This document shows, in pieces, positions 2,227 to 46,765 of a DNA stretch of 64,000 nt. Where the stretch lies: NCBI GenBank assembly GCA_903902515.1, contig CAIUVD010000091.1:8199-72198 (forward strand). The letters are read 5' to 3'. The DNA comes from an uncultured Planctomycetota bacterium. GTDB taxonomy: Bacteria; Planctomycetota; UBA11346. Numbering within the stretch: the stretch's first letter is position 1; every line of letters starts with the position of its first letter. The notes below the pieces were generated by a model. The model worked only from the letters and a program-made list of their open reading frames with translations. It searched no databases and was not told the DNA's origin. The translations under genes and the position numbers were made by a program.

Positions 2227-2669
2227 CAGACATCCCAAGATCCCGGTTTTTCTGAAGGATGGGGCTTGGGTTGCAAGACCGCCTCGACCTGCGCAGGGAT
2301 GCCGGCGAATCGGTCCGTGAAGGGTTGGCCAGGATCCTGGCCGACCAGTCTTCGGCGCAGTTGGATCACAGCCCGGGAGGCCTCGCGCACGGTCTCCCAG
2401 TCGGCTTCGTGACCCTGTCCCCCGTTGATGCGCTTGAGGGCCTGATTGAGGTTCGCCCCGATCCCCCTGAGCTGGGCGTTCGTGTCCTGGTCAATCCGGG
2501 CCGGGGGCGGGCTGACCTGGACCTCGAACACAACATCGCGAATCCAGGCACCGAGCGTGGCGTAGCCCGCTATAGCAGCCTTGGTATTAAGGTCGGCCAG
2601 CTCAGCGTCATTGACACCGAAGCCGGCGGTTTTCTTGCGGGGATTTCGGTCACGAACGATACGGGGCAT
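2226..2669 (-). CDS. mobC: MobC-family relaxosome accessory protein
   Basis: 147 aa, LRGIGANLNQALKRIN is the conserved MobC motif; lies immediately upstream of the relaxase gene on the same strand. Confidence 0.7.
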   Translation of the reverse strand: MPRIVRDRNPRKKTAGFGVNDAELADLNTKAAIAGYATLGAWIRDVVFEVQVSPPPARIDQDTNAQLRGIGANLNQALKRINGGQGHEADWETVREASRAVIQLRRRLVGQDPGQPFTDRFAGIPAQVEAVLQPKPHPSEKPGSWDV

Positions 2670-3466: not shown

Positions 3467-4645
3467 TTAAGCCGTCGCCACTACCTCCTGGATTGGCTGC
3501 CGCTGAGCTGCACTTGCCGGCGCTAATTGACGCAAAATGAATGCCCCCCGCGGCCACTCTGAGACCGCGTGACGAAAGATCATTTGCTGACGAGAGTAAC
3601 CTTGGGTCGTCAACAACGACTCATGTCCGGCCCACGCAGCGACCTGGATAGCGTTGACGTCGGCGGCAAGCAGCATGGAAATCCAGGTGTGCCTTGTGCT
3701 ATGAGGAGTTCGGCCTTGAGGATCTACTCCACAGCGCTTCAGATACGACTTAAAGCGGAGTCCATGGCGCTTCCCGTCACAGTCACGGTCGTCGGGATCC
3801 GCCGCAATAAAGCCCGACAGCTTTGCGCGAGCACGGAGGATCTCAGCCAACTCCTCCTGTAGGGGAAGGAACCGCTCTTTGCCTCGTTTCAGTTTATAGA
3901 CCCCTGGTTGATGGCAGACCTCAATAACCTTGGCCTCCCAACGGATATCAGACCAGCGCAGGTGCATCGCCTCACCAATCCGACATCCCGTGTATGCGAG
4001 CAAGGCAAAACGCAGGAAATAGGGATCGGACTCTCGATCGCGTGCCAGAAGAGCCCGCAACTCGTCCACATTGAAGACGGCTTTATTCTTCTGAATCACC
4101 GTTGTCCGCTTGATGCCCGCGATCGGATTGAAGGTCAGACGCCTTGTGTTGATAGCATGGCGGACCACCGAACGAATCTCCTGGAGCCAACGATTGCGCG
4201 TGTGAGCCGTTACGGTCAGCACATCGATCCGGTCTTCGGCAAAAGTCTTGCCCGAATCAAGGAACCGGCGGACCAGGGACGGGAAGATCGGAGACTTCAT
4301 GTCCCTAGCCCCAAGGTCTGCAAGGGCCTGGATCAGGCGCTCGTGCTCGCGGACGTAGGGCTCTGAGCGTTGTGCCGACCTCAAATTTTCGACCAGTTCC
4401 ATTCCGACCGTGCGCCAGTCGGCATCTGTGGCCGAATCCAACCCAGTCGTGAAACGGGCACTGGTCATCTGGCCCCAGCGGCGGGCATCGGCTATCTGCC
4501 CATCTGCAAAGGAACGGCTCACCCGCCGATTGGTCGTGGGATCCCGAACCTGGACTTCATAGCGAGCCCCTTCCCGAATTCCGCGTTTTTTCCAGATGTC
4601 CCGGATAATGACGCCTCGGATTCCTGAGTTGGCGAGCTTGGGCAT
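3467..4645 (-). CDS. int: Tyrosine site-specific integrase (phage integrase family)
   Basis: LLAYTGCRIGE (catalytic Arg box I) and HSTRHTW (box II His-x-x-Arg) plus the C-terminal Tyr region. True start taken as MPKLANSG (4645). The longer ORF in the track runs through the att repeat (DLGLEPRT reads a tRNA T-arm) and is an artefact. Confidence 0.85.
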   Translation of the reverse strand: MPKLANSGIRGVIIRDIWKKRGIREGARYEVQVRDPTTNRRVSRSFADGQIADARRWGQMTSARFTTGLDSATDADWRTVGMELVENLRSAQRSEPYVREHERLIQALADLGARDMKSPIFPSLVRRFLDSGKTFAEDRIDVLTVTAHTRNRWLQEIRSVVRHAINTRRLTFNPIAGIKRTTVIQKNKAVFNVDELRALLARDRESDPYFLRFALLAYTGCRIGEAMHLRWSDIRWEAKVIEVCHQPGVYKLKRGKERFLPLQEELAEILRARAKLSGFIAADPDDRDCDGKRHGLRFKSYLKRCGVDPQGRTPHSTRHTWISMLLAADVNAIQVAAWAGHESLLTTQGYSRQQMIFRHAVSEWPRGAFILRQLAPASAAQRQPIQEVVATA

Positions 4646-4847
4646 GGGATCGTCCTTAAGGGTAGGGCCGTGGATAGGCCGTGGATAGCTCAGTGTCCCA
4701 CCATAGACCACCATCCCGAGGAATTTCTGAGGTCCGCTCGGGATCGCAGCCAGTGGGGGCCGTCGGCCATTATAGCCGACTGAACAATGACTTAACGTCA
4801 TTTTATCGATCCTCAGCGATCCCCTGCAATCCCCCGTGTCGTGAATT

Positions 4848-4890
4848 CTTAATCCCTGGGTCCTAGGTTCGAGTCCTAGATCGCGCACCA
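4848..4890 (+). repeat. att-like repeat copy 1: tRNA 3'-end-like fragment (T-stem CTAGG/CCTAG, T-loop TTCGAGT, 7-nt acceptor 3' strand, discriminator A, CCA). No 5' half present
   Basis: CTTAATCCCTGGGTCCTAGGTTCGAGTCCTAGATCGcgcacca. No complementary acceptor 5' strand (GCGCGAT) within 90 nt upstream, so not a complete tRNA. 34/36 identical to 15164-15199. Confidence 0.6.
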
Positions 4891-4896
4891 TGATAA

Positions 4897-4935
4897 GCCC
4901 CTGCAATCTAAGTGGTTGCAGGGGCTTTGTGTTTT
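4897..4935 (+). terminator. Rho-independent terminator (10-bp perfect stem, 9-nt loop, T-rich tail) immediately after the tRNA-like att copy
   Basis: GCCCCTGCAA tctaagtgg TTGCAGGGGC TTTGTGTTTT. Confidence 0.6.
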
Positions 4936-5144
4936 GGGGGTTTGATGGTGTTTTTCACTGGGCTAGCCCCGGGGATCATTCCTTAAAATGACGAAAGCCA
5001 CCCATACAGGTGGCCACGCATCCCCGATGCCGCGAGGAGCCAGAGGCGTTTTTTAGGGGAAATCTAGACCATACTGGACCAAAGCTGCTGAATAACACAG
5101 CGACGAAACCGACAAAGATAATCTATATAGCTTAGGCATTCAGA

Positions 5145-5855
5145 TTATACTTCACCAAGCGCGTTCAGCCGCTTCTTACGATCTTCCCAATCCGGCATTA
5201 ATCGCTGCAATAATCGCCAAAATTTTGGTGAATGGTTGTGTTCTGCGAGATGGCAGAGCTCATGCATCACCACGTAGTCGATGCACTCGCGGGAGGCCTT
5301 GAGGAGCTCCAGATTGAGAATGATCCGACCAGCCGGGGTGCAACTCCCCCAGCGGTGGGTCATGCGACGGACGAGCAGGGTGGGGAGAGGGATGCCTTCC
5401 ACTGCTGCCAGTCGATGGCAAGCCTTCAAGCGCTCTGCGAACACCTCTCCAGCTCGATCTGCATACCACGTCCGCACCAGGTGGCCGAGAACGGCCGGAG
5501 ACGGGTGATCGGGCGTCGTGACGTCCAAATACCCGCGCCGCAGAACAACTCCCGCGATCGGCCCGGGAATGGCCCGCAGGCGGTATTGCCGCCCCAGGTA
5601 ACGGTGCGTTTCGCCCGGGACATACTCCCGGGGAGACTGAAGGGGGTGGAAACACTCAAATTCACGCCACGCCTGCCGGATCCACGCACCCCGCTTGCAG
5701 ACTTTGGCCCGGATGCGCTCCAACGGTGTTCCGATGGGCGCGGTCACCTCGACGGCCAGGTCGGGCCGGACCGTGATGGCGAGGGTCTTGGCCGGTCCAA
5801 ACCGGTAATGGTAGGGGATCTCGGTAGAGCCCCAGACCACGCGATCGGCCAGCAT
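5145..5855 (-). CDS. M48-family / DUF45 (YgjP-like) zinc metallopeptidase of the kind commonly linked to type I R-M loci
   Basis: HELCHLAEHNH (HExxH) near the C-terminus. N-term IPYHYRFGPAKTLAITVRPDLAVEVTAP resembles YgjP/DUF45. Start at MLADRV (5855) overlaps the hsdR stop (5857). Confidence 0.7.
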   Translation of the reverse strand: MLADRVVWGSTEIPYHYRFGPAKTLAITVRPDLAVEVTAPIGTPLERIRAKVCKRGAWIRQAWREFECFHPLQSPREYVPGETHRYLGRQYRLRAIPGPIAGVVLRRGYLDVTTPDHPSPAVLGHLVRTWYADRAGEVFAERLKACHRLAAVEGIPLPTLLVRRMTHRWGSCTPAGRIILNLELLKASRECIDYVVMHELCHLAEHNHSPKFWRLLQRLMPDWEDRKKRLNALGEV

Positions 5856-5856
5856 C

Positions 5857-8800
5857 TCAGCCTCCCGCCTGCTTCTTGAGGGTGGACACCACCTGCGCCA
5901 AGAGCTGGTCGATCTCGGCCGTCGTCCAACCGATCCCATGTGCTGAGCGCAGGTCAAACAGGGCATCATCGACCGCATTCTCGACGTCCTTGATCAGGTC
6001 TGGACTGTGGACCCAGTCGACGATGCGAACCTTGGGTTGCACCCGCTCCTCGATCTCCAAGGCGAGCGTTGATGCGAGTTGGCGAAGGTCGACCCCGCTC
6101 CCCACCTCTTGGGCGCGGCTCTTGGTAACCTCAACCTGCTCCAGAGCGGTCCCCATCAGGCCGAAGAACGCTCGTGCAGCCCGGTGGCGTTCACCTTCCA
6201 ACTCAATCGGTAGCTCGTCCGCGTGCCCTTGGCGCACCTGGGCGAGGTAGACCTCAACCTTCTTCAGGTATTCCAGTTCACTGATGCGTTCATGGCGGTA
6301 ATCGTCAATGGTTTGTTGCACCAACTTAGCAAAACGACCGTAAAATTCTTCGTCCTCCCCCATCTTCTCGCGGCAGGTTTTGGCCAGTCGGCTGGCGATG
6401 GTGTCAGCCTTCGACGCCGCGCTCTCGTGGGTCGCCACTTCTTGGTCCATTGCCTTCACGTCGAAGAGGCTGAATTCCGGGGTGATGATCTTCACCTCTG
6501 GAGCCTGAATGTGGTCGTCCAACAGCTTGCGGATTTGTTTTTCGTATTGGCTGTAGTCCACCCGGTCGCCGTACCTGCTCTGGACCGAGGTTCGCAGGCC
6601 GATGAAGCGCTTGAAATCCCGTTTAAAAACCTCCAGCCGTTCGCGCGGCACCAGGGCGTAGACCTGCTCGGATGCCAGGGCCGTGGCTAGGGTCTTTTGG
6701 AAGGTCCGCAGGGTCGCGTAGAAGGACTCTCGGCGATCCTCAGGTGCAAGGTGCCGCTCCATTGCTTCATTGTCGAGCTGGTTGCAGACCTCTTTGAAGA
6801 TCGCCCAGACATCGCTGTGGTGCTGTGGCAGGTCGGCGATCACCGAGCTGACGTCAGTCACCGCCCCGCCCAGGTCGACGTCGTTCTGATCGAAGCCCGC
6901 CAGGGCATCGTATGTCTTCATCGAGGCGTTGAGCTCACCAAGCACCCCACGGTAGTCCACGATCAGGCCATGATCCTTGCCCGGGAACAGCCGGTTCACG
7001 CGTGCGATCGCCTGGAGGATGTTGTGCTCCTTGAGCGGCTTATCGATGTACAGCACGGCATTACGCGGCTCATCGAACCCGGTCAGCAACTTGTCGACCA
7101 CGATCAAGATCTCGACGTCGCTGTCTTCCTGCCCGAAGGCGGCCTTGAGCTGGCGGTTGTAGACATCCTCCGTCTTGAACCGCTTCATCATCTCGGCCCA
7201 GAACTGGCCAACCAGGGATTCATCCTCTTCGACCGCCTCGTCCTCGCCCCGAACATCCGGGGCAGACATGATCACTTCCGCCTGCACGAGGCCGAATTCC
7301 TGCATGAATTTCCGGTAGCGGATGGCGCTGGTGCGGTTGCGTGCGGCGACCTGGCCCTTGAGCCCGCGCCCCTGGAAGTTGGCTTTGAAGTGGGTGCTGA
7401 TGTCGAAGGCGATCAGCTTGATGCGTTGTTCGGCTTCACTCAGCACCTCGCGCCGCGACATCGTGCGCTTGAGGTCTGCCCGCTGCTTCTCGCTCAGGCT
7501 CGTGGTCAATCGCTCGAACCACTGATCCAGGGCCCGCTCGTTCTGCTCCAGCAAGGCCATCCGTCCCTCGTACACGAGGGGTGCCACGGCCTCGTCATCG
7601 ACGGCCTGACGCATGGTGTAGCTGTGGATGAAGCCGCCAAATTTCTGTGCGGTCTGCTTTTCCTTCTTCAGGAGAGGGGTGCCGGTGAAGGCGATGTAGC
7701 ACGCATTGGGGAACACCCGTCGCATCTTGGCGGCAAAGCCCCCATAGTTCGACCGGTGGCCTTCATCGATCATCACGAAGATGTTCGGGCTCTCATCCCG
7801 GGCCTGATTCTTGTCCATGACCGCCGCGAACTTGTTAATGATCGCGGTGATGACGCTGGCCTTGCCCTCGGTGATGAGCTTGGCCAGGTGCTCGCCCGTC
7901 CGTGCCCGTTCCGTGGTTTTGCCGCAGGCCTCAAAGGTTCGCGACAACTGAATGTCGAGGTCGTCGCGGTCGGTAACCAGCACCACACGTGGGTCGGTGA
8001 TGCCAGGGTGCAGGGCGATCGCCTTGGCCAGCATGACCATGGTTAGCGATTTTCCGGACCCCGTCGTGTGCCAGACGACCCCGCCCTCGCGTGCGCCCTC
8101 GTGGAGCGTGGTCACGCGGGCGACCGTCGCCGCCACGGCGAACCACTGCTGGTACCGGGCGACCTTGCGCACCCCAGCATCGAACACCACGGCGTCGCGG
8201 ATGAACGTCACCAAGCGATCTTGGCGCAGCATGGCCCAGAGCGTGCGGTCCTGCTCGGTTGGCAGGCGATCACCGGCCTTGGCCCGTTCCTGCCACCAGA
8301 GCCGCGCCTCACGGTAGGCGTCCACTCGCTTGGAATCGGGAGGCGCGAAGAGCTTGGCCTCGACGTCATCGGGCAGCCGCTGGTTGGCAGAGGCATGGAC
8401 CGCCTGCTCGTGCCGTCCCTCTTCCTTCCAGACGCTCCAGAATTTCAGCGGCGTCCCCACCGTGCCATAGCGGCAGGAATTCACGCTCGTCCCCAGCACC
8501 AGTTGCGCGAATTGGAAGAGGTGGGGGATGTGATCGTCCTTCTGATAGGTCACGACCTGCTTGATGGCCTTCTCGATGGCCTTGTCCCCAACGTCGCCGT
8601 CCTGGTCGCGACGTTTACATTCGATGACCACCACGGGGATGCCGTTGATGAACAGCACCAGATCAGGTCGGCAGGTCTCGTGGGAGCGCGACCGCTCGAC
8701 GGCGAACTCATCGCTGACGTGGTAGACGTTGCGCTCCGGCCGCAGCCAATCGATGAAGTGCACCTGCCGACCCTTGCGGTCGCCCTCCACTTCAACGTCG

Positions 8801-9117
8801 ACGCTCGTCCCCAGGGTGAGCAGGTGGTACACCGCCTCGTTGGTCCGCACCAAGCCGTCATACGGCACCTCGGTCAGTCGACGGATGGCCTCCCCCAGGT
8901 TCACATCCGAGAACGGCAGCGACTGCCCACGAGCCTCCACCCGGTTGTGCTCTGCCAGCCAGGGCTTCAGCACCCCGGTCAACACTACCTGGTCTTGCCG
9001 GCCTCCACGCAGGGCCAAGGCCTCTTCCCGGCTGAGGTACTGCCAGCCCAAGGCGCAGAGCACCTGCACCGCAGGGATCTGGCTGTCGAGATCTTCGAGG
9101 TAGGGCGAGAGCGCCAT
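5857..9117 (-). CDS. hsdR: Type I restriction enzyme R subunit
   Basis: 1086 aa, SF2 helicase motifs TTGSGKSLTMV (Walker A) and FVMIDEGHRS (DEAH-like); size and architecture typical of HsdR. Confidence 0.9.
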   Translation of the reverse strand: MALSPYLEDLDSQIPAVQVLCALGWQYLSREEALALRGGRQDQVVLTGVLKPWLAEHNRVEARGQSLPFSDVNLGEAIRRLTEVPYDGLVRTNEAVYHLLTLGTSVDVEVEGDRKGRQVHFIDWLRPERNVYHVSDEFAVERSRSHETCRPDLVLFINGIPVVVIECKRRDQDGDVGDKAIEKAIKQVVTYQKDDHIPHLFQFAQLVLGTSVNSCRYGTVGTPLKFWSVWKEEGRHEQAVHASANQRLPDDVEAKLFAPPDSKRVDAYREARLWWQERAKAGDRLPTEQDRTLWAMLRQDRLVTFIRDAVVFDAGVRKVARYQQWFAVAATVARVTTLHEGAREGGVVWHTTGSGKSLTMVMLAKAIALHPGITDPRVVLVTDRDDLDIQLSRTFEACGKTTERARTGEHLAKLITEGKASVITAIINKFAAVMDKNQARDESPNIFVMIDEGHRSNYGGFAAKMRRVFPNACYIAFTGTPLLKKEKQTAQKFGGFIHSYTMRQAVDDEAVAPLVYEGRMALLEQNERALDQWFERLTTSLSEKQRADLKRTMSRREVLSEAEQRIKLIAFDISTHFKANFQGRGLKGQVAARNRTSAIRYRKFMQEFGLVQAEVIMSAPDVRGEDEAVEEDESLVGQFWAEMMKRFKTEDVYNRQLKAAFGQEDSDVEILIVVDKLLTGFDEPRNAVLYIDKPLKEHNILQAIARVNRLFPGKDHGLIVDYRGVLGELNASMKTYDALAGFDQNDVDLGGAVTDVSSVIADLPQHHSDVWAIFKEVCNQLDNEAMERHLAPEDRRESFYATLRTFQKTLATALASEQVYALVPRERLEVFKRDFKRFIGLRTSVQSRYGDRVDYSQYEKQIRKLLDDHIQAPEVKIITPEFSLFDVKAMDQEVATHESAASKADTIASRLAKTCREKMGEDEEFYGRFAKLVQQTIDDYRHERISELEYLKKVEVYLAQVRQGHADELPIELEGERHRAARAFFGLMGTALEQVEVTKSRAQEVGSGVDLRQLASTLALEIEERVQPKVRIVDWVHSPDLIKDVENAVDDALFDLRSAHGIGWTTAEIDQLLAQVVSTLKKQAGG

Positions 9118-9118
9118 G

Positions 9119-10045
9119 TCAGGTCGTCCAGAAGGAGTGCGTACGCCAGTTGGCAGGCAGGCCCATGGCCACCTGCCAGCGCGGGTGGCTGTCCATCTCG
9201 GTCAAAAGCGCCTGTACGCGACCCGACCAATGGCTTCCTGCCTGGTGATGCCGCAGCAGGTAGCGCAGGATCAGCAACACGCCGTACACGTGATGTCGAT
9301 CCGGGAGGGCCGGTGGAATCCAGCACCGCTCTTCGGTCGTCGGGCTGCGGGGGTTGCGCGGTTCGGGCATGGTGGGCTTGATCGCCAAATCCCGATTCCA
9401 CAGCCGCCCATGGTGGGCACAGAGGTTGCGCACGTATGACAGGGTATGCAGCCAGTCACCAAAGACACGGTGGTGCACGCGATACGATCCGGCAACTGCT
9501 CGCTTATCGTCATGGTGCAGGCCACGAAACAGCACCGACAGCGACCCGAGCGACATGACCTCAGACGCCACCCACAGGGGGAGCGACGGGAAGCCGTCGT
9601 AGGTGTTTTCGTAATGGAGGATGAAGGTCTCCTCCGAACGCTCAGCCTCCCGGTGCAGCTTGTCGATCCACTCAGGGTGACGGAACTGCGGGTGGAAGTT
9701 CACGGAGGCTTCGTGCCCGTAGGGGCCGTAGGCGTGCACCAAATGGTAGGTCACCGTGGTGCGCACGGCAATCTCGACCCGTTCGATTGCATCCATGACC
9801 AGCAGGCGGAGACGGCGGTCAAACTCATAGAGCCGCTCCGCCTCTGCCAGGCTTGCGGTGTCTTCGAAGCGATCGCCAGGAACCAGCTTAAACAGCAGCC
9901 AGTAGGCACTGAGGCGGTAATAGCTCACGCGGCTGAGCAATGCCTCGGCCCCTCGCCGGTTGCCCACGTTCAGCCCACGGGCCTCCAGCAGGTCCACCTG
10001 CTGGGCGAAGGTCAGGGCGGTTTTGTTGTAGGGCTTGGTGCTCAT
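9119..10045 (-). CDS. Abi-like protein (Abi_2 / AbiD-AbiF family abortive-infection protein)
   Basis: 308 aa, N-terminal LSRVSYYRLSAYW motif characteristic of the Abi_2 family; ends 2 nt before hsdR start. Confidence 0.7.
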   Translation of the reverse strand: MSTKPYNKTALTFAQQVDLLEARGLNVGNRRGAEALLSRVSYYRLSAYWLLFKLVPGDRFEDTASLAEAERLYEFDRRLRLLVMDAIERVEIAVRTTVTYHLVHAYGPYGHEASVNFHPQFRHPEWIDKLHREAERSEETFILHYENTYDGFPSLPLWVASEVMSLGSLSVLFRGLHHDDKRAVAGSYRVHHRVFGDWLHTLSYVRNLCAHHGRLWNRDLAIKPTMPEPRNPRSPTTEERCWIPPALPDRHHVYGVLLILRYLLRHHQAGSHWSGRVQALLTEMDSHPRWQVAMGLPANWRTHSFWTT

Positions 10046-10068
10046 GCCAGGTTTCCCGGCGTGCGCGT

Positions 10069-10126
10069 AAAAACAAAAAAGCCGCCAAGGTTACGCATGC
10101 CCCTTGCGGGGTATAGGCGTGGCGGC
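10069..10126 (-). terminator. Candidate rho-independent terminator between hsdS and abi (minus strand): GC stem GCCGCCA/TGGCGGC with inner CCCC-gcaa-GGGG hairpin, then U-run
   Basis: Plus-strand AAAAACAAAAAA (10069-10080) is the minus-strand T-tract directly 3' of the stem 10081-10087/10120-10126. Confidence 0.45.
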
Positions 10127-10328
10127 TGTGTTGGAGGTACGATGCCAGATGCGTGGCTGTCGCGCAACATGGCAAAAAACAACACGCTCTCCCGTATCCG
10201 TGTCTCGATCTGCGACACAAGGAGCTCATCTATGAAGACAGTAATCATGACAGCCCCTGCCTTGGCCAGCCCCCAGGGGCGTGGATCGTAGAAGTTGCCA
10301 AGACAGGCGGACATGGCCATGGGTGCTC

Positions 10329-11597
10329 CTAGGCCGCCTGGACCTTCACGCGGCGTTTGCCGGTGAGGAGCTGTTGCATGAGGCCCTTTTTCTGGGTGCG
10401 AAAAGCGGAGAGCAATCGTTCGAGCAACTCGATTTCCCGATCGACGATGTCAAATAGATCGGCGATGCGCCGTTGTTCGTCTAACTCCGGCAGGGGGATA
10501 GGCAACTGTGCCAGGTCATCAAAATAGATGCGGATGCGCACGCCGCCGGCGCCTGCGGTGTCCATGAATGAAGACCATGCATCCGAACGCCGAAATGCGT
10601 TGAAATAGCGATGGTCGATTGCCTCATCACGGCAGCGGAACACCACATAATCCGGTGAAACGAGCGCATCTTCCTGCCCCAGCCATTGGCAGATAGAGCC
10701 AATGTTGATACGCATTGGATTATAGGCGAACCAGTGATTTTTGACGATCAGGTAGCGGGATAAATCGTCGGCCATGACATGCTCCTTCATGGGGATCATG
10801 CCTTCTGCTTTGTTCACAGCCCTGACGGATTCCGAACCAAGGCGCCCATTATTTCGGACGGAGCTGGCCTCGGCGACGTCGCCGATAGTGCGCTTCCGCC
10901 ACGGCTTGGTAAACCCAGGAAACCTCCGCTTCCCCGTCAGCAACTGCTGCATGAGGCCTTGGCGACGTTTACGCGAGGCCTTCAGGAGATTTTCCAGGTA
11001 AAGCGAGGCAGTCTCCCAGTGCTCAAGAATTCGCGAGATTTCTTGTTGCTCGGAAAAAGAAGGAATTGGGATCCTGAGCGCTAGGAGGTCATCCTGCGTA
11101 ATATTTTTCATAGAATCGCTCGTCCCGGTTGCCTGGGATGAGAGCCGGTGACGAAGTGTCGGCAATTGCAGTAGGTGGGAAAGCCACTTGGTGGAATACT
11201 TGACCCCAGAGCGAGGCTTTAACTGCCAAAGTTTATCGGGAAGATATGTCTTTGGACAGTCCTCTCGCACTAACGCACTAGCGCCGACGAGATCAGGGGT
11301 ATTACAACGGCTGACGATAAGGTGACCCTTGAGCACAGGCTCGCTTACTCGTGCAACATCCTCGGGGATAACGACCTTGGCGGCATTTTTTTTGAACACG
11401 CCGTAAGACACTGCGCTGATCTTCAGGACGGTTATTTCACCTGTGCTTGCTGGCCGATCTTCACCATTAACGCTCACTCCAGAGTCTAGAGAGCCAACAA
11501 GATCAGAAACCTTGCCAGCTTTCCAGTCTGTAGGAACGAGTCCAAGATGCGGCACTTCCTTGAAAGCTGCTGTCACAGCCCCAACTCCTTGAGGCAC
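10329..11597 (-). CDS. hsdS: Type I R-M specificity subunit, two target-recognition domains
   Basis: 422 aa with the conserved inter-TRD repeats RQGLMQQLLTGKRR and KKGLMQQLLTGKRR. Confidence 0.85.
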   Translation of the reverse strand: MPQGVGAVTAAFKEVPHLGLVPTDWKAGKVSDLVGSLDSGVSVNGEDRPASTGEITVLKISAVSYGVFKKNAAKVVIPEDVARVSEPVLKGHLIVSRCNTPDLVGASALVREDCPKTYLPDKLWQLKPRSGVKYSTKWLSHLLQLPTLRHRLSSQATGTSDSMKNITQDDLLALRIPIPSFSEQQEISRILEHWETASLYLENLLKASRKRRQGLMQQLLTGKRRFPGFTKPWRKRTIGDVAEASSVRNNGRLGSESVRAVNKAEGMIPMKEHVMADDLSRYLIVKNHWFAYNPMRINIGSICQWLGQEDALVSPDYVVFRCRDEAIDHRYFNAFRRSDAWSSFMDTAGAGGVRIRIYFDDLAQLPIPLPELDEQRRIADLFDIVDREIELLERLLSAFRTQKKGLMQQLLTGKRRVKVQAA

Positions 11598-13072
11598 CCA
11601 GCCATCTCCGCCCGGACCTTAACCAATTCCGCCTCTAAATCAGCGATTTCCTTACCTACCTTGGCCAAATCCACCTCTTCCTCAGCCTCGAATGTGTCCA
11701 CATACCGGGGAATATTGAGGTTGTAATCGTTCTCGGCGATCTCTTCCAGCGTCGCCTTGTAGGCGTACTTCTCGACCGTCTTGCGGATGCGGTAGGTCTC
11801 AACGACCTTCTGGACCTCGACGTTGACCCGCAGGTAATTCTGGTTTTTCCCATCCTGGAACTCGCGGGAGGCGTCGATGAACAGCACATCCTTCCGGCTG
11901 CCACGATCACGGCGGAAGATCAGGATGGCCGCTGGGATTCCGGTACCGAAGAACAGGTTCGGAGGCAGGCCGATCACCGCATCCAGGAGGTTCTCCTCGA
12001 TCAGCTTTTGCCGAATCGCGCCTTCGGCCCCGCCGCGGAACAGCACGCCATGGGGCACGACCACACCAACCCGTCCGGTGTCCTTCACCGTGGTCTCGAT
12101 CATATGGCTAATGAAGGCGTAGTCGCCCTTGCTCTTGGGGGGCACGCCCCGGTGCCAGCGGTTGAATCGCTTGGCCTCATCGTCCGCCTTGTCCGCCCCC
12201 CACTTGTCGAGGCTGAACGGCGGATTGGCCACCACGACGTCGAAGCGCATGAGTTGGTCGTTGGCCAAGAGCTGGGGCTCCAGCAGGGTGTCCCCGGCCT
12301 CGATGCGGGCATTCGCCACATCGTGCAAGAACATGTTCATCATGCACAACGCCCAGGTCGTGCGGTTGTTCTCCTGACCCCAGATCGAGATGTTGTCGGA
12401 ATTAGCCTCGCGGGCGCAGCGCAGCAGCAGCGAGCCCGAGCCGCACGCCGGGTCGCAGATGCGCTCGCCAGCCTTGGGTGCCAGCAGCTTGGCCAGGAGG
12501 ATCGAGACCTCCTTCGGGGTGTAGAATTCCCCGGCCTTTTTACCGGCGTCGTCGGCGAACTTGCCGATGAGGAATTCGTAGGAGTCGCCGATGACGTCGT
12601 TGCCCGCCAGTCGCGAGGGACGCAGGTCGAGCTTGTTGAAGTCCTCCAGGAGGTTTTTTAGCACCTTGTTGCGATTCTTGGTCGATCCCAGGCGGGATTC
12701 GCTGTTGAAGTCAACGTTGCGGAAGACGTCCTTGAGTTTGACTTTGTTGGCCAGTTCGATGGCTTCTAAGGCCTTGTTGATCGTCTCGCCAACGCTGGCC
12801 CCTTCGCGCAGGGCATAGACCTCGGCAAAGCTGGATTTCTCGGGCAGAACGAAGCGCTCACGGTCCATCTTGCGACGGATGCGCTCCTCATCGCCCTTGA
12901 ACTCCTTGGCGAGCTCGTCGCGGCGCTCGCGCCACACGTCACTAATATACTTCACGAACAGCATCGTGAGCACGTAGTCCTTGTAGTCGGCCGCATCGAT
13001 CTGGCCGCGAAAGGAGTCGCAGGCCTGCCAGAGGATACGATTGACGTCGTCTTGGGTGGTGGTGTCGGTCAT
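11573..13072 (-). CDS. hsdM: Type I R-M N6-adenine DNA methyltransferase subunit
   Basis: DPACGSGSLL (SAM motif I) and VVANPPF (motif IV NPPF). Confidence 0.9.
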   Translation of the reverse strand: MTDTTTQDDVNRILWQACDSFRGQIDAADYKDYVLTMLFVKYISDVWRERRDELAKEFKGDEERIRRKMDRERFVLPEKSSFAEVYALREGASVGETINKALEAIELANKVKLKDVFRNVDFNSESRLGSTKNRNKVLKNLLEDFNKLDLRPSRLAGNDVIGDSYEFLIGKFADDAGKKAGEFYTPKEVSILLAKLLAPKAGERICDPACGSGSLLLRCAREANSDNISIWGQENNRTTWALCMMNMFLHDVANARIEAGDTLLEPQLLANDQLMRFDVVVANPPFSLDKWGADKADDEAKRFNRWHRGVPPKSKGDYAFISHMIETTVKDTGRVGVVVPHGVLFRGGAEGAIRQKLIEENLLDAVIGLPPNLFFGTGIPAAILIFRRDRGSRKDVLFIDASREFQDGKNQNYLRVNVEVQKVVETYRIRKTVEKYAYKATLEEIAENDYNLNIPRYVDTFEAEEEVDLAKVGKEIADLEAELVKVRAEMAGCLKELGL

Positions 13073-13084
13073 GTTCGGCTCGAT

Positions 13085-13680
13085 TTATCGTGAAGTGTTA
13101 GTGAGGAAGGAGAGGCCAATGCTGCGGTTGCGCAGGGCAACGGCCTGGGTCATGCGCCCCAAGATCTCTTGCTCCTTTTGCTGGAGCTCGCTGAGATGGG
13201 CGATGTACCCCTGCTGGTGCATCGGTGGCAAGGGAATGCAGATGGCCTCGAATAGGGCCCGTTGAACTATGGGAGTACCGGCTCCCGTGCGAGCCTGGCT
13301 GATGGCGGCTTGCGTCGGCGCCTGGTTCAGAAACCAGGCCAGGTATTCCGGATCAACAAGGCCCGGCCGAGGCCTGAGCACGAAGAAAGCCGCCGTAGGC
13401 ACCGCGTTAATGGCACATTGGTCAATTCTGGCCGCGCGGTTTTTTTCTCCGCGTGACATGAAGAGGACATCACCCCCCATCACGCAGTACCCCTCGGCCC
13501 GTTCAGGAAGGTCCATCCGCGTGTCATGGTCTTCCCCGATGGAAACGGGTCGACCTGACTCGTGGACGTGGCGTGGTTGAATGACCAGAAATCGGCCGTT
13601 GTCCTGGTGCTGGACCGCCCCTGGGTTGGAAAACCCAGGGGTGATTTCAGCCGCCTCATCGAGACGGGCATGGTTCATGT
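13085..13680 (-). CDS. Solitary half HsdS (single target-recognition domain plus conserved C-terminal helical region)
   Basis: About 199 aa from MNHARLDEAAEITPGF. TRD-like GDVLFMSRGEKNRAARIDQ...AVPTAAFFVLRP, then IPLPPMHQQGYIAHLSELQQKEQEIL typical of HsdS conserved regions. 13 nt upstream of hsdM. Confidence 0.6.
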
Positions 13681-14075
13681 GATGTCTTTCACCCATACTT
13701 TCAGGGGATTGTAGGGGGTTCCGATGGGCCAGTTCACCAGGTACCGACGACTGGTCGCCGGAGACTCGCCAATCCAAACGATGGCCGCTTCCGGCTGAAA
13801 AGGAGGCGGGTGGTTCTCCCACGCGAGGCGTGCAGTGATCTTGGCTCCCTCTTCGCTGTTCGGGGAGGTAAAGACCCCGTCGGCCCAGGCAAAATCCAGG
13901 TCACGGTACCGGACGAGCTGAACGCCGGGAACGCCCATAGCCGCCACGATGTATTGATCGACTGCCGTGGCGGACTTTACCCAAATCACTCGCCCTGCCC
14001 GCCAGCCGCGCTGGCGGGCAGGGTGCCACTCGGTGTTGTTCGCATGCGTCGCATAGAGCTCTTGGAAGGTCATCA
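13675..14075 (-). CDS. Hypothetical Trp-rich protein, no recognisable domain
   Basis: About 136 aa from MMTFQELYATHANNTEWHPARQRGW; stop overlaps the half-hsdS start; begins about 8 nt after the GIY-YIG gene stop. Confidence 0.4.
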
Positions 14076-14083
14076 TGGCAGCC

Positions 14084-14412
14084 TCACCCGTGCGCCGTCT
14101 GGTTAATCGGCGGGGCGAGGGTGCCCACCAGGTCTGCCTCGACCTGCCTCCGGCGGTCTTCGTGGGGAATTCCGATAGCCGCGATGTGGGTCGCACGCTG
14201 ACGCCGGAACGCCATGGCATGGTGGTGATTGTCAAAACGGGAGCTGAGGTCGCCCGTCTGGCCAATGTAGAGCACCGTCCAGCGTGCTCCTTCATCGCGC
14301 ATGATCGCATAGACGCCGCCGACGGCAGGGAGAGGGGTTCCGAAAGGGAACACCGTGAGGTGATAAGAGGTGCCCGACCGAGCGGTCAGGGTCACTGTGG
14401 GATGCATAGCCA
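14084..14412 (-). CDS. Small GIY-YIG nuclease-domain protein (YhbQ/UPF0213-like size)
   Basis: About 109 aa from MAMHPTVTL. GGVYAIMRDEGARWTVLYIGQTGDLSSRFDNHHH matches the GIY-x10-YIG-x-T-x-L-x2-R-x3-H pattern; GGAGAG RBS-like 8 nt upstream. Confidence 0.5.
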
Positions 14413-14530
14413 TGAAAGGCTCTCCTGGGAAAGGAGCCTGACTGGACCTCAGAGCCAAATCCGCTACAGTGGTGTTGCAAGACGTCACCTGCGGCTTGGT
14501 CGTCGGCGAGCCCGACTCCAGGTTTTAAGG

Positions 14531-14574
14531 AACCGAAAAACCCAGCCCCTGCCAGGGGGTTGGGTTTTTCGGTT
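14531..14574. repeat. Near-perfect 19-bp stem hairpin (AACCGAAAAACCCAGCCCC tgcca GGGGGTTGGGTTTTTCGGTT) at the edge of an AT-rich tract
   Basis: Arms differ at one position; T-rich tails on both sides suggest a bidirectional terminator. Confidence 0.4.
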
Positions 14575-15163
14575 TATGGCCGACAGAGAGAACGCCTCGC
14601 TGTCGCCATAATGAGTAGTGTAAGCACTCCTAATTTTTTTCAAGTTTTTTTCCGGTGTCTCCATTACTTGATATTGTCGTCGGCAGTCGCGAGGGGCCTA
14701 GGTGACAGATCTGTGCATTTTGTATATACAATTTACACATGATGTATACCTGAGGTCCGCAGCGCCACTGATGGCGTTTGTTATTATGTAAGTAATATCA
14801 TTGGGCCTCATGCATTACTCGCTGTAGTAAACCATTTAAGGCTGGGCGCAGCCGAAAGGGGAACTGGGGCTGGCCCTCTGTATCCCCTTGCTGACTCACA
14901 AGCGCCCGAGGTGTCCGCTCAGCCGTCTCCGAGGGCTGCGGGAGGGCGGCTAGGTCCGACCTTCAGCAGCCTCATTTGTCCAAGGTCCGAATTCCTAATG
15001 ATCCGTGATTTCTAGGCAGGTCAGCTCCGCCGGCCCAGCGAGAAGGCTCACCAAGCAAGTGCCTGTCGGCAATCCCTGCACCCCCCAGCTCGAGAACGTA
15101 TCTTTTTCCCGTTCGCTTTGGGTGCTGGAGTGGCTGGTGCTGTGCCCACTAATCAATTTGTCC

Positions 15164-15199
15164 CTTAATCCCTGAGCCCTAGGTTCGAGTCCTAGATCG
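15164..15199 (+). repeat. att-like repeat copy 2 (34/36 identical to 4848-4883), followed by divergent 3' sequence ATCTCCA
   Basis: CTTAATCCCTGAGCCCTAGGTTCGAGTCCTAGATCG; no complete tRNA can be folded around it. Confidence 0.6.
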
Positions 15200-15431
15200 A
15201 TCTCCATTATAAACATCTGAAAATCAATGTTTTGCAGTGGATTTTTGCCTCTGGGCTCTCGACCCTTGCTGGCCAAATTAAGATGCCTGTTGGGCGGCAG
15301 AACAACTCCAAACCTGACAGCCCCCTTAGCAGAGATGGCCTTACGGCCATCCCTGCTGGGGGCATTGTCCTCGTCCGATGGACCTCACCACCGCAAGGCC
15401 GGTGGAGCCCTCGGCAGAAGAAGACCAGGCT

Positions 15432-17708
15432 CTATTGGGCGACCGTGCCCTTCAAAACCTGCAGATCCTGATCCCGACTGCTGGTGCCGACCAGTATTTC
15501 AATGGCACCCGGGGGCAGGCGCCACGCCCCGTCGGCGTCGCAGATGGCCAGGCGAGACCGGGGAATCGGGATGGTGATGCTTTGACGCTGGCCGGGCTCC
15601 ACCGTGACCCTGGCCCAGGCTGCCAGCCACCGGTTGGGGCGGCTGACCGGGCCGACGGGCAGACGGGCGTAGACCTGAACCACGGTGGAAGAGGTGCGAA
15701 TGCCGGGGTTTTCGACGGTCAGCGTCACGGCCTGATCCGTGTCGGCGGGCAGGTTCTGATGCTGCAGGGTGGGCTGTACCAGGCGCAGCCGTTCATACCC
15801 GAGGCCCTCACCGAAGGCGAAGAGTGGGCGATCGTACCCCAAGGTGGCGTCATCGACATAGACCTTGCCATGGGAGGCCGGGTGGAAGTCGTAGGCGACG
15901 GGTAATTGACCGACATGACGGGGGAAGCTGATGGGGAGACGGCCCAGGGGCTCGGCATCGCCACACAGGACGGCGGCCACCGCATCACCCGTGGCCTGGC
16001 CTGGACGGAAGGCGACCAGTAGGGCCTCAGCACCATCGGTGATTTCGGGAATCGCCAGGGGTTTGCTGCAGAGGAGGATGACCACCAGCGGCGTGCCGGT
16101 AGCCCGGACTGCCTCGTACAGGCGCTGCTGGTTTTCCGGCAGGCGCAGGTGGGCCGTGGAGCAGAATTCGCCATCCCAATCGGGCGGATCGCCAACCACC
16201 AACACCACCAGGTCGGCGGCTTCGGCCGCACGAACGGCGGCCGCAAGGCGCTCCGGGTGCGCCTCTCCGGCGGGGTCATCCGTGACCTGGGCCCGGCGTT
16301 CGGGGACGTGGTGATGGGCAGGGACCATGGGGACACCGCCACACCCACGGGCGTACGTGATCACCGCGCCTTCTGCCGCCAGCCGACGTTCCAAGCCATC
16401 CCGGATGGTGCTGCTATTGGCCCGGGGATGGGCCCGGTTGCGGTGCAGGTCTTGGTTGGCCTTGTAGCCGAGGTTCCAGTCGCCCGCCTGAACGACAGGA
16501 TCATCCGCATAGGGTCCGATGAGGGCGATGCGGCGCCGGGCCCGGGGCTCGAGGGGCAACAGCTGATCCCGATTGCGCAACAGAGTCAGGGCACCGAGGG
16601 CCGTGCGATGGGCGAGGTCACGATGGGCCGGCGCCTGGAGGACGTCCTCGGGCTTTCCCACCACCAAGGGCCGCTCGAACAGACCCAGACGGAATTTCAC
16701 CGCCAAAACCCGAGCAGCGGCCCGTTCAAGATCACCACGGGTCAAGGTCCCCGCCGCAAGTTGGCGCAGGATCGCCGCGGGAGCCTCGGGTTCGGCCATG
16801 AACAAATCGGTGCCGCCTTTCAGGCAACGCACCACCGCCCGATCCAGGTCCTCGGCCGACTTCACCTGCTGCACCATCCGCGTGGCACATTCCCAATCCG
16901 TGACCACCAACCCTTCGAAGCGCAGCTCGCCCTTGAGAATCTCGGTCAGCCAGCGGTGATTTTCGCTCATGGCCACGCCATCCACGGTCTGGTAGGCGCA
17001 CATGATGGTCTGGGCACCCGCATCGACCGCGACCTGAAACGGCCTTAGGTACCGAGCGCGAATGGTCCGCTCGGACAGTTCGCATTCACTGGCGTCCCGG
17101 CCTCCGACGGTGTCGCCATAGGCGATAAAATGCTTGGGGCAGGCCGCCACGCTGGTGGGCGCATCGAGACGATCCCCCTGATACCCGGCGATCATGGCCG
17201 CCCCCATCTCGGCAATCAGCAACTGGTCTTCGCCGAAGGTTTCGCCGGTGCGGCCCCACCGCAGGTCCCGGGGCCGGCACAAGGTGGGGCTGAAGGTCCA
17301 ATGCAGCCCGGTGCTGACCATTTCGATGGCGGTCGCCCGGCCGACGGCCTTCACCGCCTCCGTATCCCAACCCGCCGCCAAGCCGAGCTGAGTTGGGTAC
17401 ACCGTGGCGCCGGCCCACAGGGTGTGGCCGTGGATGGCGTCGATGCCGGCCAGCAGGGGAATGCCCAGGCGGGTCTTGGCGGCGGTCGCCTGCAGTGCCG
17501 CGAGCTCCTCACCGCCGACAAAGAGCACCGATCCAACACCCTTGGCCGCCCATTCCTGATGGACCGGCAATGCTGGTCGCCCCGCCGCAACCTGGACCAC
17601 CTGCCAAGCCAGCTCCTCCAGGGTCGCGCGGGGGAGCAAATCCGCGACCCGGTCTTCAATGGACAAGCTGGGATTGCGGAAGGGAGCGTCGTGGAACAGA
17701 TCGGTCAT
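15432..17708 (-). CDS. bglX: Glycoside hydrolase family 3 beta-glucosidase (BglX-like)
   Basis: 758 aa, GH3 N-terminal motifs (KHFIAYGD, GLVVTDW) and C-terminal domain; chromosomal GC. Confidence 0.85.
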   Translation of the reverse strand: MTDLFHDAPFRNPSLSIEDRVADLLPRATLEELAWQVVQVAAGRPALPVHQEWAAKGVGSVLFVGGEELAALQATAAKTRLGIPLLAGIDAIHGHTLWAGATVYPTQLGLAAGWDTEAVKAVGRATAIEMVSTGLHWTFSPTLCRPRDLRWGRTGETFGEDQLLIAEMGAAMIAGYQGDRLDAPTSVAACPKHFIAYGDTVGGRDASECELSERTIRARYLRPFQVAVDAGAQTIMCAYQTVDGVAMSENHRWLTEILKGELRFEGLVVTDWECATRMVQQVKSAEDLDRAVVRCLKGGTDLFMAEPEAPAAILRQLAAGTLTRGDLERAAARVLAVKFRLGLFERPLVVGKPEDVLQAPAHRDLAHRTALGALTLLRNRDQLLPLEPRARRRIALIGPYADDPVVQAGDWNLGYKANQDLHRNRAHPRANSSTIRDGLERRLAAEGAVITYARGCGGVPMVPAHHHVPERRAQVTDDPAGEAHPERLAAAVRAAEAADLVVLVVGDPPDWDGEFCSTAHLRLPENQQRLYEAVRATGTPLVVILLCSKPLAIPEITDGAEALLVAFRPGQATGDAVAAVLCGDAEPLGRLPISFPRHVGQLPVAYDFHPASHGKVYVDDATLGYDRPLFAFGEGLGYERLRLVQPTLQHQNLPADTDQAVTLTVENPGIRTSSTVVQVYARLPVGPVSRPNRWLAAWARVTVEPGQRQSITIPIPRSRLAICDADGAWRLPPGAIEILVGTSSRDQDLQVLKGTVAQ

Positions 17709-29135: not shown

Positions 29136-29176
29136 GGGATTCTCGCGCAGAAGGACGGTGATGGGAGGCCAACGGA

Positions 29177-46757: not shown

Positions 46758-46765
46758 CCACGGCT

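What the first reader, a model, noticed from the sequence alone, without database searches (positions are those of the whole stretch)
4848..15199. 10.3-kb defense island bracketed by 36-bp tRNA-3'-end-like direct repeats
The sequence CTTAATCCCTG.G.CCTAGGTTCGAGTCCTAGATCG occurs at 4848-4883 and 15164-15199, 34/36 identical. It is a tRNA T-arm plus acceptor 3' strand; copy 1 even continues A-CCA and is followed by its own terminator. Neither copy has a 5' tRNA half. Between the copies lies a lower-GC, single-strand gene string: type I R-M (hsdR, hsdM, hsdS), an Abi_2 gene, an M48 peptidase, an extra half-hsdS, a GIY-YIG protein and an unknown. Immediately to the right is a high-GC GH3 gene. This is the footprint of integrase-mediated insertion at a tRNA 3' end, with copy 2 as the displaced original 3' end.
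Basis: seen in the sequence. Interest (0 to 1): 0.7.

Follow-up and report, generated by a model that had tools for sequence, protein, structure and literature searches.

The report
Stacked mobile islands at tRNA-Lys gene

Summary
The 36-bp repeat (4848-4883 and 15164-15199, 34/36) is the 3' half of the Planctomycetota tRNA-Lys(CUU) gene, found intact in 13 other MAG or metagenome loci. Copy 1 matches the real tRNA exactly over 46 nt (4845-4890, through CCA) and has a strong terminator. Copy 2 is a decayed version of the same 3' half and trailer.

The 10.3-kb type I R-M/AbiD segment has no integrase and no integrase remnant. An intact tyrosine integrase sits just left of copy 1 (3467-4645). 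It belongs to a second element (integrase, MobC, relaxase, coupling protein) that runs off the window's left edge. Related elements from two other hosts end the same way, with the integrase abutting an orphan tRNA-Lys 3' half. So copy 1 is that element's attR, with the crossover in the anticodon loop.

The best reading is a tandem array: parent tRNA (unseen), then a mobilizable element, copy 1, an integrase-less defence island, copy 2, then chromosome. Base composition and strain comparisons place the end of the foreign DNA at copy 2. Strains with 97-98% identical flanking genes carry different cargo there. This is a new member of a known kind, of modest interest. The parent tRNA and an empty site were not found.

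The parts
1..694 (-). N-terminal 231 codons of a 630-aa TraD/VirD4-type coupling protein; the gene and the element continue off the left edge of the window
   Evidence: Translation. The full gene is in L001/L005, with Pfam TraG-D_C and TrwB_AAD_bind. It is 24-27% identical to plasmid TraD coupling proteins.
698..1330 (-). 210-aa protein of unknown function, conserved in the mobilization module of the related elements
   Evidence: The same 210-aa gene sits between the relaxase and the coupling protein in L036, L038 and L039. No Pfam match.
1333..2226 (-). 297-aa relaxase (MobA/VirD2-like nuclease domain)
   Evidence: PF03432, E = 7e-9.
2226..2669 (-). 147-aa MobC/NikA-like relaxosome accessory protein
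   Evidence: PF21983 and PF05713.
3467..4645 (-). 392-aa tyrosine integrase, apparently intact; gene callers extend it to 4801
   Evidence: PF00589, E = 2e-19. R222, K253, H315-x-x-R318, H341 and Y350 are invariant across the 10-member family alignment.
4646..4844 (+). P arm of the left element's attR; contains a tandem GCCGTGGATAG x2 at 4667-4688, a candidate arm-type integrase site
   Evidence: Homologous to the same arm in L036, including the tandem motif. Sequence read directly. Function is inferred.
4845..4890 (+). Copy 1: exact 3' 46 nt of tRNA-Lys(CUU), from anticodon-loop position 31 to CCA; attR core and B' side of the left element
   Evidence: 100% identity to nt 31-76 of the intact tRNA over 46 nt.
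4895..4927 (+). Native-type intrinsic terminator of tRNA-Lys (14-bp stem and T-run)
   Evidence: Homologous trailers follow the intact tRNA in L017 and L023 and occur in strain L032.
5145..5858 (-). YgjP-like (M48-type) metallopeptidase
   Evidence: PF01863, E = 4e-58.
5857..9117 (-). Type I restriction subunit HsdR (1086 aa)
   Evidence: Pfam HSDR_N, SWI2_SNF2 and T1R_D3. PADLOC REase_I, E = 6e-209.
9119..10045 (-). Abi_2/AbiD abortive-infection protein embedded between hsdS and hsdR
   Evidence: PF07751, E = 5e-53. PADLOC AbiD, E = 9e-72.
10042..10320 (-). 92-aa ORF of unknown function
   Evidence: No family match. Called as a gene in every assembly.
10329..11576 (-). Type I specificity subunit HsdS (two target-recognition domains)
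   Evidence: PF01420. PADLOC Specificity_I, E = 7e-71, full length.
11573..13072 (-). Type I methyltransferase HsdM
   Evidence: N6_Mtase E = 3e-105 and HsdM_N. PADLOC MTase_I.
13085..13678 (-). Extra half-size HsdS (one target-recognition domain)
   Evidence: PADLOC Specificity_I, E = 3e-19. Weak PF01420.
13675..14413 (-). Two small ORFs (133 aa and 109 aa); the 109-aa one has only a sub-threshold GIY-YIG hit
   Evidence: E = 0.007, below the cut-off. No PADLOC match.
14414..15163 (.). 750-bp non-coding stretch, GC 0.54, with a long hairpin at 14527-14577 and no integrase remnant
15164..15250 (+). Copy 2: decayed tRNA-Lys 3' half (2 changes in the variable loop, acceptor tail ATCTCCA in place of CGCACCA) with a decayed trailer and terminator
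15247..15321 (.). Right boundary of the strain-variable, compositionally foreign block
   Evidence: Homology with L033/L034 (96.6% nt) starts at about 15247-15257, and with L032 (92.6% nt) at about 15321. The composition switch falls here.
15432..17708 (-). GH3 beta-glucosidase, the first conserved chromosomal gene to the right
   Evidence: Orthologues at 89-98% identity.

Best explanation
The interval is the inner member of a tandem array of foreign DNA at the tRNA-Lys(CUU) gene of a freshwater planctomycete. The inferred order is: parent tRNA-Lys (outside the window, not seen); an integrative mobilizable element (coupling protein, 210-aa protein, relaxase, MobC, integrase, plus defence cargo and an IS66 further left); copy 1; an integrase-less 10.3-kb type I R-M/AbiD island; copy 2; then chromosome (GH3). 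The element's tyrosine integrase recombines its attP with the anticodon loop of the tRNA gene. The element supplies a new 3' half to the tRNA, and the previous 3' half, with its CCA end and terminator, is pushed to the element's far end. That pushed-aside piece is copy 1. Copy 2 is an older displaced 3' end from an earlier acquisition, and it has since decayed. The segment between the copies now has no recombination or transfer genes, so it resembles a 'CIME' (cis-mobilizable element) or a decayed island. Its present role is phage defence. Shown here: the tRNA identity of the repeats, the integrase-to-orphan-half junction in three related elements, the lack of an integrase inside the interval, the composition boundary, and the strain variability. 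Inferred: the order of events, the original mode of entry of the R-M segment, and the position of the parent tRNA.
For: (1) The repeat is the 3' half of a real tRNA-Lys(CUU): 12 intact genes in GTDB Planctomycetota MAGs and one more in L035. Copy 1 is 46/46 identical through CCA. (2) An intact tyrosine integrase lies 200 bp left of copy 1, followed by MobC, a relaxase and a coupling protein. (3) Related elements in other hosts have the same module and the same junction: L036 (integrase 83% identical) and L038/L039 (68%). In each, the integrase abuts an orphan tRNA-Lys 3' half with host-specific T-arm or acceptor changes, CCA and a terminator, and no intact tRNA is present. Their P arms align with the window's, and identity to the tRNA begins in the anticodon loop. 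This is the anticodon-centred class of attachment site described by Islander (PMC4383910). (4) L038 is itself a tandem array: beyond its orphan half lies the 3' end of a second integrase, 84% identical to the one next to the intact tRNA-Lys in L025. (5) tRNA-Lys(CUU) is a recurrent island site: integrases follow it in L023 and L025, a type I R-M with a YhcG nuclease in L017, and a relaxase element in L035; L021 is an orphan half in the same MAG as the intact tRNA of L027. (6) Positions 1-15.2 kb are compositionally foreign (GC 0.60, tetranucleotide distance 0.29-0.34, against 0.12-0.18 to the right). (7) Strains with 97-98% identical GH3 lose homology just right of copy 2 and carry other cargo. 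(8) Copies 1 and 2 are homologous over about 88 nt including the trailer, while their upstream flanks are unrelated (10/40), as expected for att sites with different P arms. (9) Tandem CIME-IME arrays formed by integration, decay and a second integration are documented, including one at a tRNA-Lys gene (PMC5704250).
Against: The parent tRNA-Lys and the left end of the element were not seen, because the DNA of the 141-kb source contig is not held. No orthologue of the usual upstream neighbour, a kinase-receiver fusion, lies on a contig of that size. No clean empty site was found. The R-M segment has no integrase remnant of any of the three integrase types tested, so its integrase-mediated entry is inferred only from copy 2. 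Strain L032 has copy 1's trailer (91% identical) on the far side of an unrelated cargo, yet L032 and L033/L034 lack copy 2. That pattern fits cargo replacement by homologous recombination at least as well as repeated site-specific integration. Whether copy 1's trailer is native or was brought in by the R-M island's attP cannot be decided. In copy 2, anticodon-loop positions 32-33 read CC where the tRNA has TT.
Confidence: 0.7

Rival explanations
1. One reading: the 10.3-kb R-M segment is one self-contained island inserted by its own integrase into a tRNA gene. Copy 1 is the regenerated tRNA end, and the parent 5' half lies immediately to its left.
For: Direct repeats of a tRNA 3' half bracket a lower-GC, defence-rich segment.
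Against: There is no 5' half next to copy 1. Its left flank is the P arm and integrase of another element, conserved as such in L036 and L038. No integrase or integrase remnant lies inside the interval, so it would fail Islander's integrase filter (PMC4383910).
Confidence: 0.05
2. Hotspot cargo swapping: the R-M segment did not enter through the tRNA site. It sits in a variable defence-island slot between the native tRNA-Lys trailer and the GH3 flank. Cargo there is exchanged between strains by homologous recombination in the conserved flanks, and copy 2 is a relic of some older event carried along with the cargo.
For: L032 shares copy 1's trailer (81 bp, 91% identity, similar to the 92.6% of the GH3 flank) but has entirely different cargo (Fic, fused MTase-S, PDDEXK, HsdR-like protein). 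L032 and L033/L034 lack copy 2, and their breakpoints (15321 and 15247) differ by about 70 bp. The trailer type is conserved behind intact tRNAs in other species. The segment has no integrase.
Against: Copy 2 sits at the composition and synteny boundary, in direct orientation, with its own decayed trailer. That is the signature of a displaced tDNA end. Elements demonstrably integrate into this tRNA, and arrays form there. This model and the best explanation are not mutually exclusive.
Confidence: 0.25
3. One composite element: the integrase/relaxase element and the R-M segment move together as a single unit whose true right end is copy 2, with copy 1 as an internal, secondary att site.
For: Both parts have the same atypical composition (GC 0.60-0.61). 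All assemblies carrying the identical integrase also carry the R-M segment beside it. Transfer of CIME-ICE tandems as one unit has been observed elsewhere (PMC5704250).
Against: Related elements end at the integrase-adjacent tRNA half and have unrelated DNA beyond it: Fic and chromosomal genes in L036, another island's integrase in L038. Copy 2 differs from the tRNA inside the presumed overlap region (CC where the tRNA has TT) and in the variable loop.
Confidence: 0.12

Closest known systems
tDNA-integrated genomic islands with anticodon-centred attachment sites (Islander; Williams 2002 sublocation classes, as cited in PMC4383910)
   Same: A tyrosine integrase is present. The block of identity runs from the anticodon loop to the tRNA 3' end. 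A displaced 3' fragment lies in direct orientation at the island end, and cargo genes are carried.
   Different: The intact tDNA end was not observed. The interval given in the finding has no integrase of its own. Two fragments lie in series, and only one integrase is visible.
CIME-IME/ICE tandem accretion (Pavlovic 2004 and Bellanger 2011, as reviewed in PMC5704250; includes a composite island with IME_Sag2603_tRNAlys in Streptococcus agalactiae)
   Same: An integrase-less segment bounded by att-type repeats lies next to a later-arrived integrative mobilizable element at the 3' end of a tRNA-Lys gene.
   Different: The host is a different phylum and the integrase and relaxase are unrelated. 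The outer att copy here is decayed, so cis-mobilization is doubtful. No excision data exist.
Integrative mobilizable elements encoding their own relaxase and coupling protein (strategy I in Figure 3 of PMC5704250)
   Same: Integrase, MobA/VirD2-like relaxase, MobC-like accessory factor and a TraD/VirD4-type coupling protein are present. No mating-pore genes occur in the roughly 14 kb that can be seen. Defence cargo is carried (a second R-M here, a SIR2 protein in L036).
   Different: The element's full extent is unknown, so a type IV secretion system further left (which would make it an ICE) is not excluded. The coupling protein is only 24-27% identical to plasmid TraD.
Type I R-M loci with an abortive-infection gene inserted between hsdS and hsdR (for example the E. 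coli prr locus with PrrC; from my own knowledge)
   Same: The gene order is hsdM, hsdS, inserted gene(s), hsdR.
   Different: The inserted gene is Abi_2/AbiD, not PrrC. Nothing here links it to tRNA-Lys cleavage.

Membership tests
tDNA-integrated genomic island (Islander definition), applied to the 10.3-kb interval | Intact tRNA gene at one end | tested here: not met
   Copy 1 has no 5' half. ARAGORN, Rfam and word-7 BLAST find no tRNA-Lys in the window.
tDNA-integrated genomic island (Islander definition), applied to the 10.3-kb interval | Displaced tDNA end fragment in direct orientation at the other end | tested here: met
   Copy 2 is a 3' fragment on the same strand as copy 1 and reaches a CCA end, although it is decayed.
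tDNA-integrated genomic island (Islander definition), applied to the 10.3-kb interval | Tyrosine integrase gene inside the island | tested here: not met
   Pfam on all ORFs, plus tblastn with three integrase types across 4880-15450, finds none.
tDNA-integrated island, applied to the element left of copy 1 | Tyrosine integrase with an intact catalytic set next to an att site | tested here: met
   PF00589 match; R, K, HxxR, H and Y are invariant. The gene is 200 bp from copy 1.
tDNA-integrated island, applied to the element left of copy 1 | Regenerated intact tRNA at the opposite end | not testable with these tools
   The element runs off the window. The DNA of the 141-kb source contig is not held, and L036 reaches only 10 kb past the integrase.
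Anticodon-centred (class A) attachment site | attP/attB identity starts in the anticodon loop and runs to the tRNA 3' end | tested here: met
   In the window, L036 and L038, identity to the intact tRNA begins at positions 31-32 (ATT or TT before CTTAA) and continues to CCA.
CIME (cis-mobilizable element) | att sites retained at both ends, with integration and transfer genes lost | tested here: inconclusive
   There are no integration or transfer genes inside. The left site is perfect. The right site is degenerate, with CC at loop positions 32-33 and two variable-loop changes.
CIME (cis-mobilizable element) | Excision or mobilization in cis by a neighbouring element's integrase | not testable with these tools
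   This needs junction PCR or read mapping.
Integrative mobilizable element (IME) | Own integrase and relaxase, without a complete mating-pore apparatus | tested here: inconclusive
   The integrase, relaxase, MobC and coupling protein are present. No T4SS genes appear in the listed 14 kb, but the left end is unknown.
Type I restriction-modification system | Full-length HsdR, HsdM and two-domain HsdS | tested here: met
   Near full-length PADLOC and Pfam matches.

The most novel reading that the evidence does not exclude
The integrase/relaxase/coupling-protein element is a so far undescribed planctomycete family of defence-carrying mobilizable elements. It preferentially stacks onto tRNA-Lys(CUU) sites that already hold another island, and it can still mobilize the neighbouring integrase-less R-M island in cis by using the outer tRNA remnant as an att site. 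On this reading, arrays of this kind would act as a modular defence-island shuttle in a phylum where conjugative transfer is almost unstudied.
Probability: 0.15. Interest if true: 0.45.

Novelty: new member of a known kind. Interest (0 to 1): 0.3.

Why it matters
It gives a precisely mapped example, with comparative support from three hosts, of a tRNA-Lys(CUU)-specific integrase and its anticodon-loop attachment site in uncultured freshwater Planctomycetota. It also shows that this site is a strain-variable defence-gene hotspot where elements pile up in tandem. That helps with annotating MAGs, for instance by explaining orphan tRNA halves and assembly breaks, and with studying gene flow in a phylum that has few described mobile elements. 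It does not reveal a new mechanism.

Tried and rejected
(1) Reaching the parent tRNA by fetching the source contig failed. The 141,626-bp contig (ERZ1426826) has only a gene list and no DNA, and other assemblies break at the IS66 or near the repeats. (2) I looked for the source's tRNA through the conserved upstream kinase-receiver gene. No orthologue lies on a contig of the right size. The one context fetched (L035) belongs to another organism, though it again shows a mobile element after tRNA-Lys. (3) The empty-site search through GH3 homologues found no empty site. It found different cargo in L032 and in L033/L034, and rearranged synteny in L030/L031. (4) search for related loci with the integrase in JGI metagenomes and IMG/VR found no relatives. 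A DNA pattern for the P-arm/core junction in JGI metagenomes gave 0 hits. (5) No integrase pseudogene is present in the non-coding stretches 4891-5144 or 14414-15163, nor anywhere in 4880-15450. (6) I considered whether the repeat is a tmRNA end or a widespread non-tRNA motif and rejected both: all collection hits are tRNA-Lys(CUU) or fragments of it. (7) The weak Rfam hits (miRNA-like, psRNA14, P15) are all below their gathering scores and are simply hairpins.
Full report
OBSERVATION. The 36-mer CTTAATCCCTGGGTCCTAGGTTCGAGTCCTAGATCG lies at 4848-4883. A 34/36 copy lies at 15164-15199, on the same strand. There are no other matches with up to 3 mismatches, and none appeared in 100 dinucleotide-preserving shuffles. 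ARAGORN finds only a tRNA-Gly (18739-18815, minus strand) in the window, and Rfam agrees. A word-7 BLAST with the full tRNA and with its 5' half finds no further pieces. So the repeat is real, non-random, and not part of an intact tRNA here.

WHAT THE REPEAT IS. A scan of one genome per GTDB species with the 36-mer (the two variable positions left open) returned 14 loci, all from Planctomycetota MAGs. In 12 of them the motif is the 3' half of an intact tRNA-Lys(CUU): GCGCGATTAGCTCAGTTGGTAGAGCAAGGGATT|CTTAATCCCTGGGTCCTAGGTTCGAGTCCTAGATCGCGCACCA. One locus (L024) is merely cut by a contig end. One (L021) is a true orphan 3' half, in the same MAG that has the intact gene on another contig (L027). 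Copy 1 is identical to nt 31-76 of this tRNA over 46 nt (4845-4890), including the acceptor strand, discriminator A and CCA. A 14-bp-stem terminator follows at 4895-4927. Its trailer is homologous to the trailers behind the intact tRNAs of L017 and L023.

Copy 2 has two changes in the variable loop and an acceptor tail reading ATCTCCA where the tRNA has CGCACCA. Its trailer hairpin is weak and degenerate. It is still clearly homologous beyond the 36 bp: the next 52 nt are 31/52 identical in register to copy 1. The window-wide mean is 13 with an sd of 3, and the next best position scores 27. The 40 nt upstream of the two copies are unrelated, at 10/40. So both copies are tRNA-Lys 3' halves with trailers, one pristine and one decayed.

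WHAT LIES BETWEEN. All genes are on the minus strand. They are a YgjP-like (M48-type) peptidase (5145-5858), HsdR (5857-9117), Abi_2/AbiD (9119-10045), a 92-aa ORF, HsdS (10329-11576), HsdM (11573-13072), a half-size HsdS (13085-13678), and two small ORFs. One of the small ORFs has only a sub-threshold GIY-YIG hit. A 750-bp non-coding stretch follows. There is no integrase. tblastn with the window's integrase, and with the two other integrase types found next to tRNA-Lys elsewhere, finds no remnant anywhere in 4880-15450.

Immediately left of copy 1, reading away from it, is a 392-aa tyrosine integrase (3467-4645). Its catalytic R, K, HxxR, H and Y residues are invariant across the family alignment. 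Further left come a 115-aa ORF, a MobC/NikA-like protein, a MobA/VirD2-like relaxase, a 210-aa protein, and the start of a 630-aa TraD/VirD4-type coupling protein that runs off the window. The gene list of the 141-kb source contig shows that the element continues to the left. It carries an IS66, a 1259-aa HsdM-like methyltransferase and another specificity subunit, for at least 14 kb in total.

COMPARATIVE TEST OF THE JUNCTION. The integrase family is small, with 13 hits. Two relatives could be read in context. L036 has an integrase 83% identical and sits on a 207-kb contig from another lake. L038/L039 have an integrase 68% identical. Both carry the same module (integrase, MobC, a 297/298-aa relaxase-like protein, the 210-aa protein, the coupling protein); L036 has different cargo, a 1255-aa SIR2 protein. 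In both, the integrase abuts an orphan tRNA-Lys(CUU) 3' half with CCA and a terminator, and no intact tRNA is present. The halves carry host-specific differences: compensatory T-stem changes in L036 and a different acceptor strand in L038. They therefore come from each host's own tRNA and not from the element. The arms on the integrase side align between the window and L036, including a tandem GCCGTGGATAG motif at 4667-4688. In all three, identity to the tRNA starts in the anticodon loop.

This is the signature of an attR. It consists of the element's P arm, a crossover in the anticodon loop, and then the displaced host 3' half. That corresponds to the anticodon-centred class of tDNA attachment sites (PMC4383910). 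Copy 1 is therefore the right end of the element that lies to its left.

THE SITE IS A HOTSPOT, AND ARRAYS FORM THERE. Downstream of intact tRNA-Lys genes in other MAGs I found unrelated integrases (L023, L025), a type I R-M with a YhcG nuclease (L017), and an element with a 671-aa relaxase (L035). In L038, just beyond the orphan half and its trailer, lies the 3' end of a second integrase, 84% identical to the L025 one and reading toward the tRNA. So this element family has landed at least once on a tRNA-Lys already occupied by another island, which is the arrangement proposed for the window.

THE RIGHT BOUNDARY. Positions 1-16 kb have GC near 0.60 and a tetranucleotide distance of 0.29-0.34 from the rest of the window. 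From 16 kb onward GC is 0.65-0.68 and the distance is mostly 0.12-0.18. GH3 homologues at 98% (L033/L034) and 97% (L032) amino-acid identity come from close strains. Their DNA matches the window from the right up to about 15247-15257 and about 15321 respectively, just right of copy 2's decayed terminator, and then diverges completely. L032 carries a different defence set there (Fic, a fused methyltransferase-specificity protein, a PDDEXK protein, an HsdR-like helicase, then a WYL protein). On the far side of that cargo it has an 81-bp stretch 91% identical to copy 1's trailer (4885-4965), although the tRNA half itself is replaced. All contigs carrying the identical GH3 or integrase show the window's arrangement. 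No empty site was found. The 89% relative (L030/L031) has rearranged synteny and no tRNA fragment.

INTERPRETATION. The data fit a tandem array: parent tRNA-Lys (unseen), a mobilizable element, copy 1, an integrase-less R-M/AbiD island, copy 2, then chromosome. The literature describes the same three-step history of integration, decay to an integrase-less CIME, and integration of a second element into the same target. It includes a composite at a streptococcal tRNA-Lys gene (PMC5704250).

I rate 'copy 1 is the attR of the left element' as very likely, about 0.9. I rate 'copy 2 is an older displaced 3' end marking the end of the foreign block' as likely, about 0.7. I rate 'the present R-M cargo itself entered by site-specific integration' as only about even. 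The reason is L032, which shares the trailer but not the cargo or copy 2, and so shows that cargo can be replaced between conserved flanks, probably by homologous recombination. I could not decide whether copy 1's trailer is native or was brought in by an island's attP. In copy 2, loop positions 32-33 read CC where the tRNA has TT, and the variable loop has two changes. It is therefore probably a poor substrate for the neighbouring integrase, though this is inference.

VERDICT. Tandem tDNA islands, CIME-like remnants and defence cargo on mobilizable elements are all well documented. What is new is the particular integrase/mobilization family and its tRNA-Lys(CUU) site in uncultured Planctomycetota. 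I rate it a new member of a known kind, with interest about 0.3.

Noticed in passing
window 4667-4688: A perfect tandem GCCGTGGATAG x2 lies between the integrase start and copy 1. It is conserved, with small changes, in the same arm of the related element in L036, and may be an arm-type integrase binding site. An earlier count gave 4672-4693; the correct coordinates are 4667-4688.
   Followed up: partly
window 14527-14577: A near-perfect hairpin with a roughly 22-bp stem sits in the 750-bp non-coding stretch left of copy 2. It produced a spurious miRNA-family hit and looks like a bidirectional terminator.
   Followed up: no
left of window (source contig gene list) and L005:3961-6446: The integrase-bearing element carries an IS66-family insertion (three genes) right after the coupling-protein gene. 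Beyond that is a second R-M-like system (a 1259-aa HsdM_N/N6_Mtase protein and a specificity subunit). Several assemblies break at this IS.
   Followed up: partly
window 9119-13072: The gene order is hsdM, hsdS, a 92-aa ORF, Abi_2/AbiD, then hsdR. An abortive-infection gene is thus embedded in a type I R-M operon, the same layout as the E. coli prr locus (from my own knowledge). Nothing here links it to tRNA-Lys.
   Followed up: no
L032:11500-11530 (reverse strand): Where L032's copy of the tRNA-Lys trailer meets non-tRNA DNA, only GCACCA of the tRNA remains. It forms a 14-nt palindrome, CATGGTGCACCATG, with the adjoining sequence. This may be the core site of a different recombinase acting at the extreme 3' end.
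   Followed up: no
L021:262-304 and L027:2680-2755: One MAG (GL74_UP_concoct_31_sub) has an intact tRNA-Lys on one contig and an orphan 3' half with CCA and a different trailer on another. This is an independent example of an island at this tRNA.
   Followed up: partly
window ~49045-49279: A Fic-like gene in the window shares 70% nucleotide identity over 235 bp with the Fic gene next to the att site in L036, and a 28-bp exact match with the Fic gene of the alternative island in L032.
   Followed up: no
window 18658-18737 (minus strand): Two long hairpins directly follow the tRNA-Gly gene. They give weak psRNA14 and P15 matches well below the gathering scores and are probably terminators.
   Followed up: no
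window 28001-32000 and 44001-56000: Other compositionally deviant stretches exist: GC 0.62 with tetranucleotide distance 0.25 at 28-32 kb, and GC 0.71-0.73 at 44-56 kb. They may mark further acquired or unusual regions.
   Followed up: no
L017:1959-4058, L023, L016, L027, L035: A roughly 690-aa Ser/Thr-kinase/receiver-domain fusion gene lies 37-116 bp upstream of tRNA-Lys(CUU) in five MAG or metagenome loci (116 bp in L017, L023 and L027, 118 bp in L016, 37 bp in L035). It is a useful anchor for finding the native locus.
   Followed up: partly
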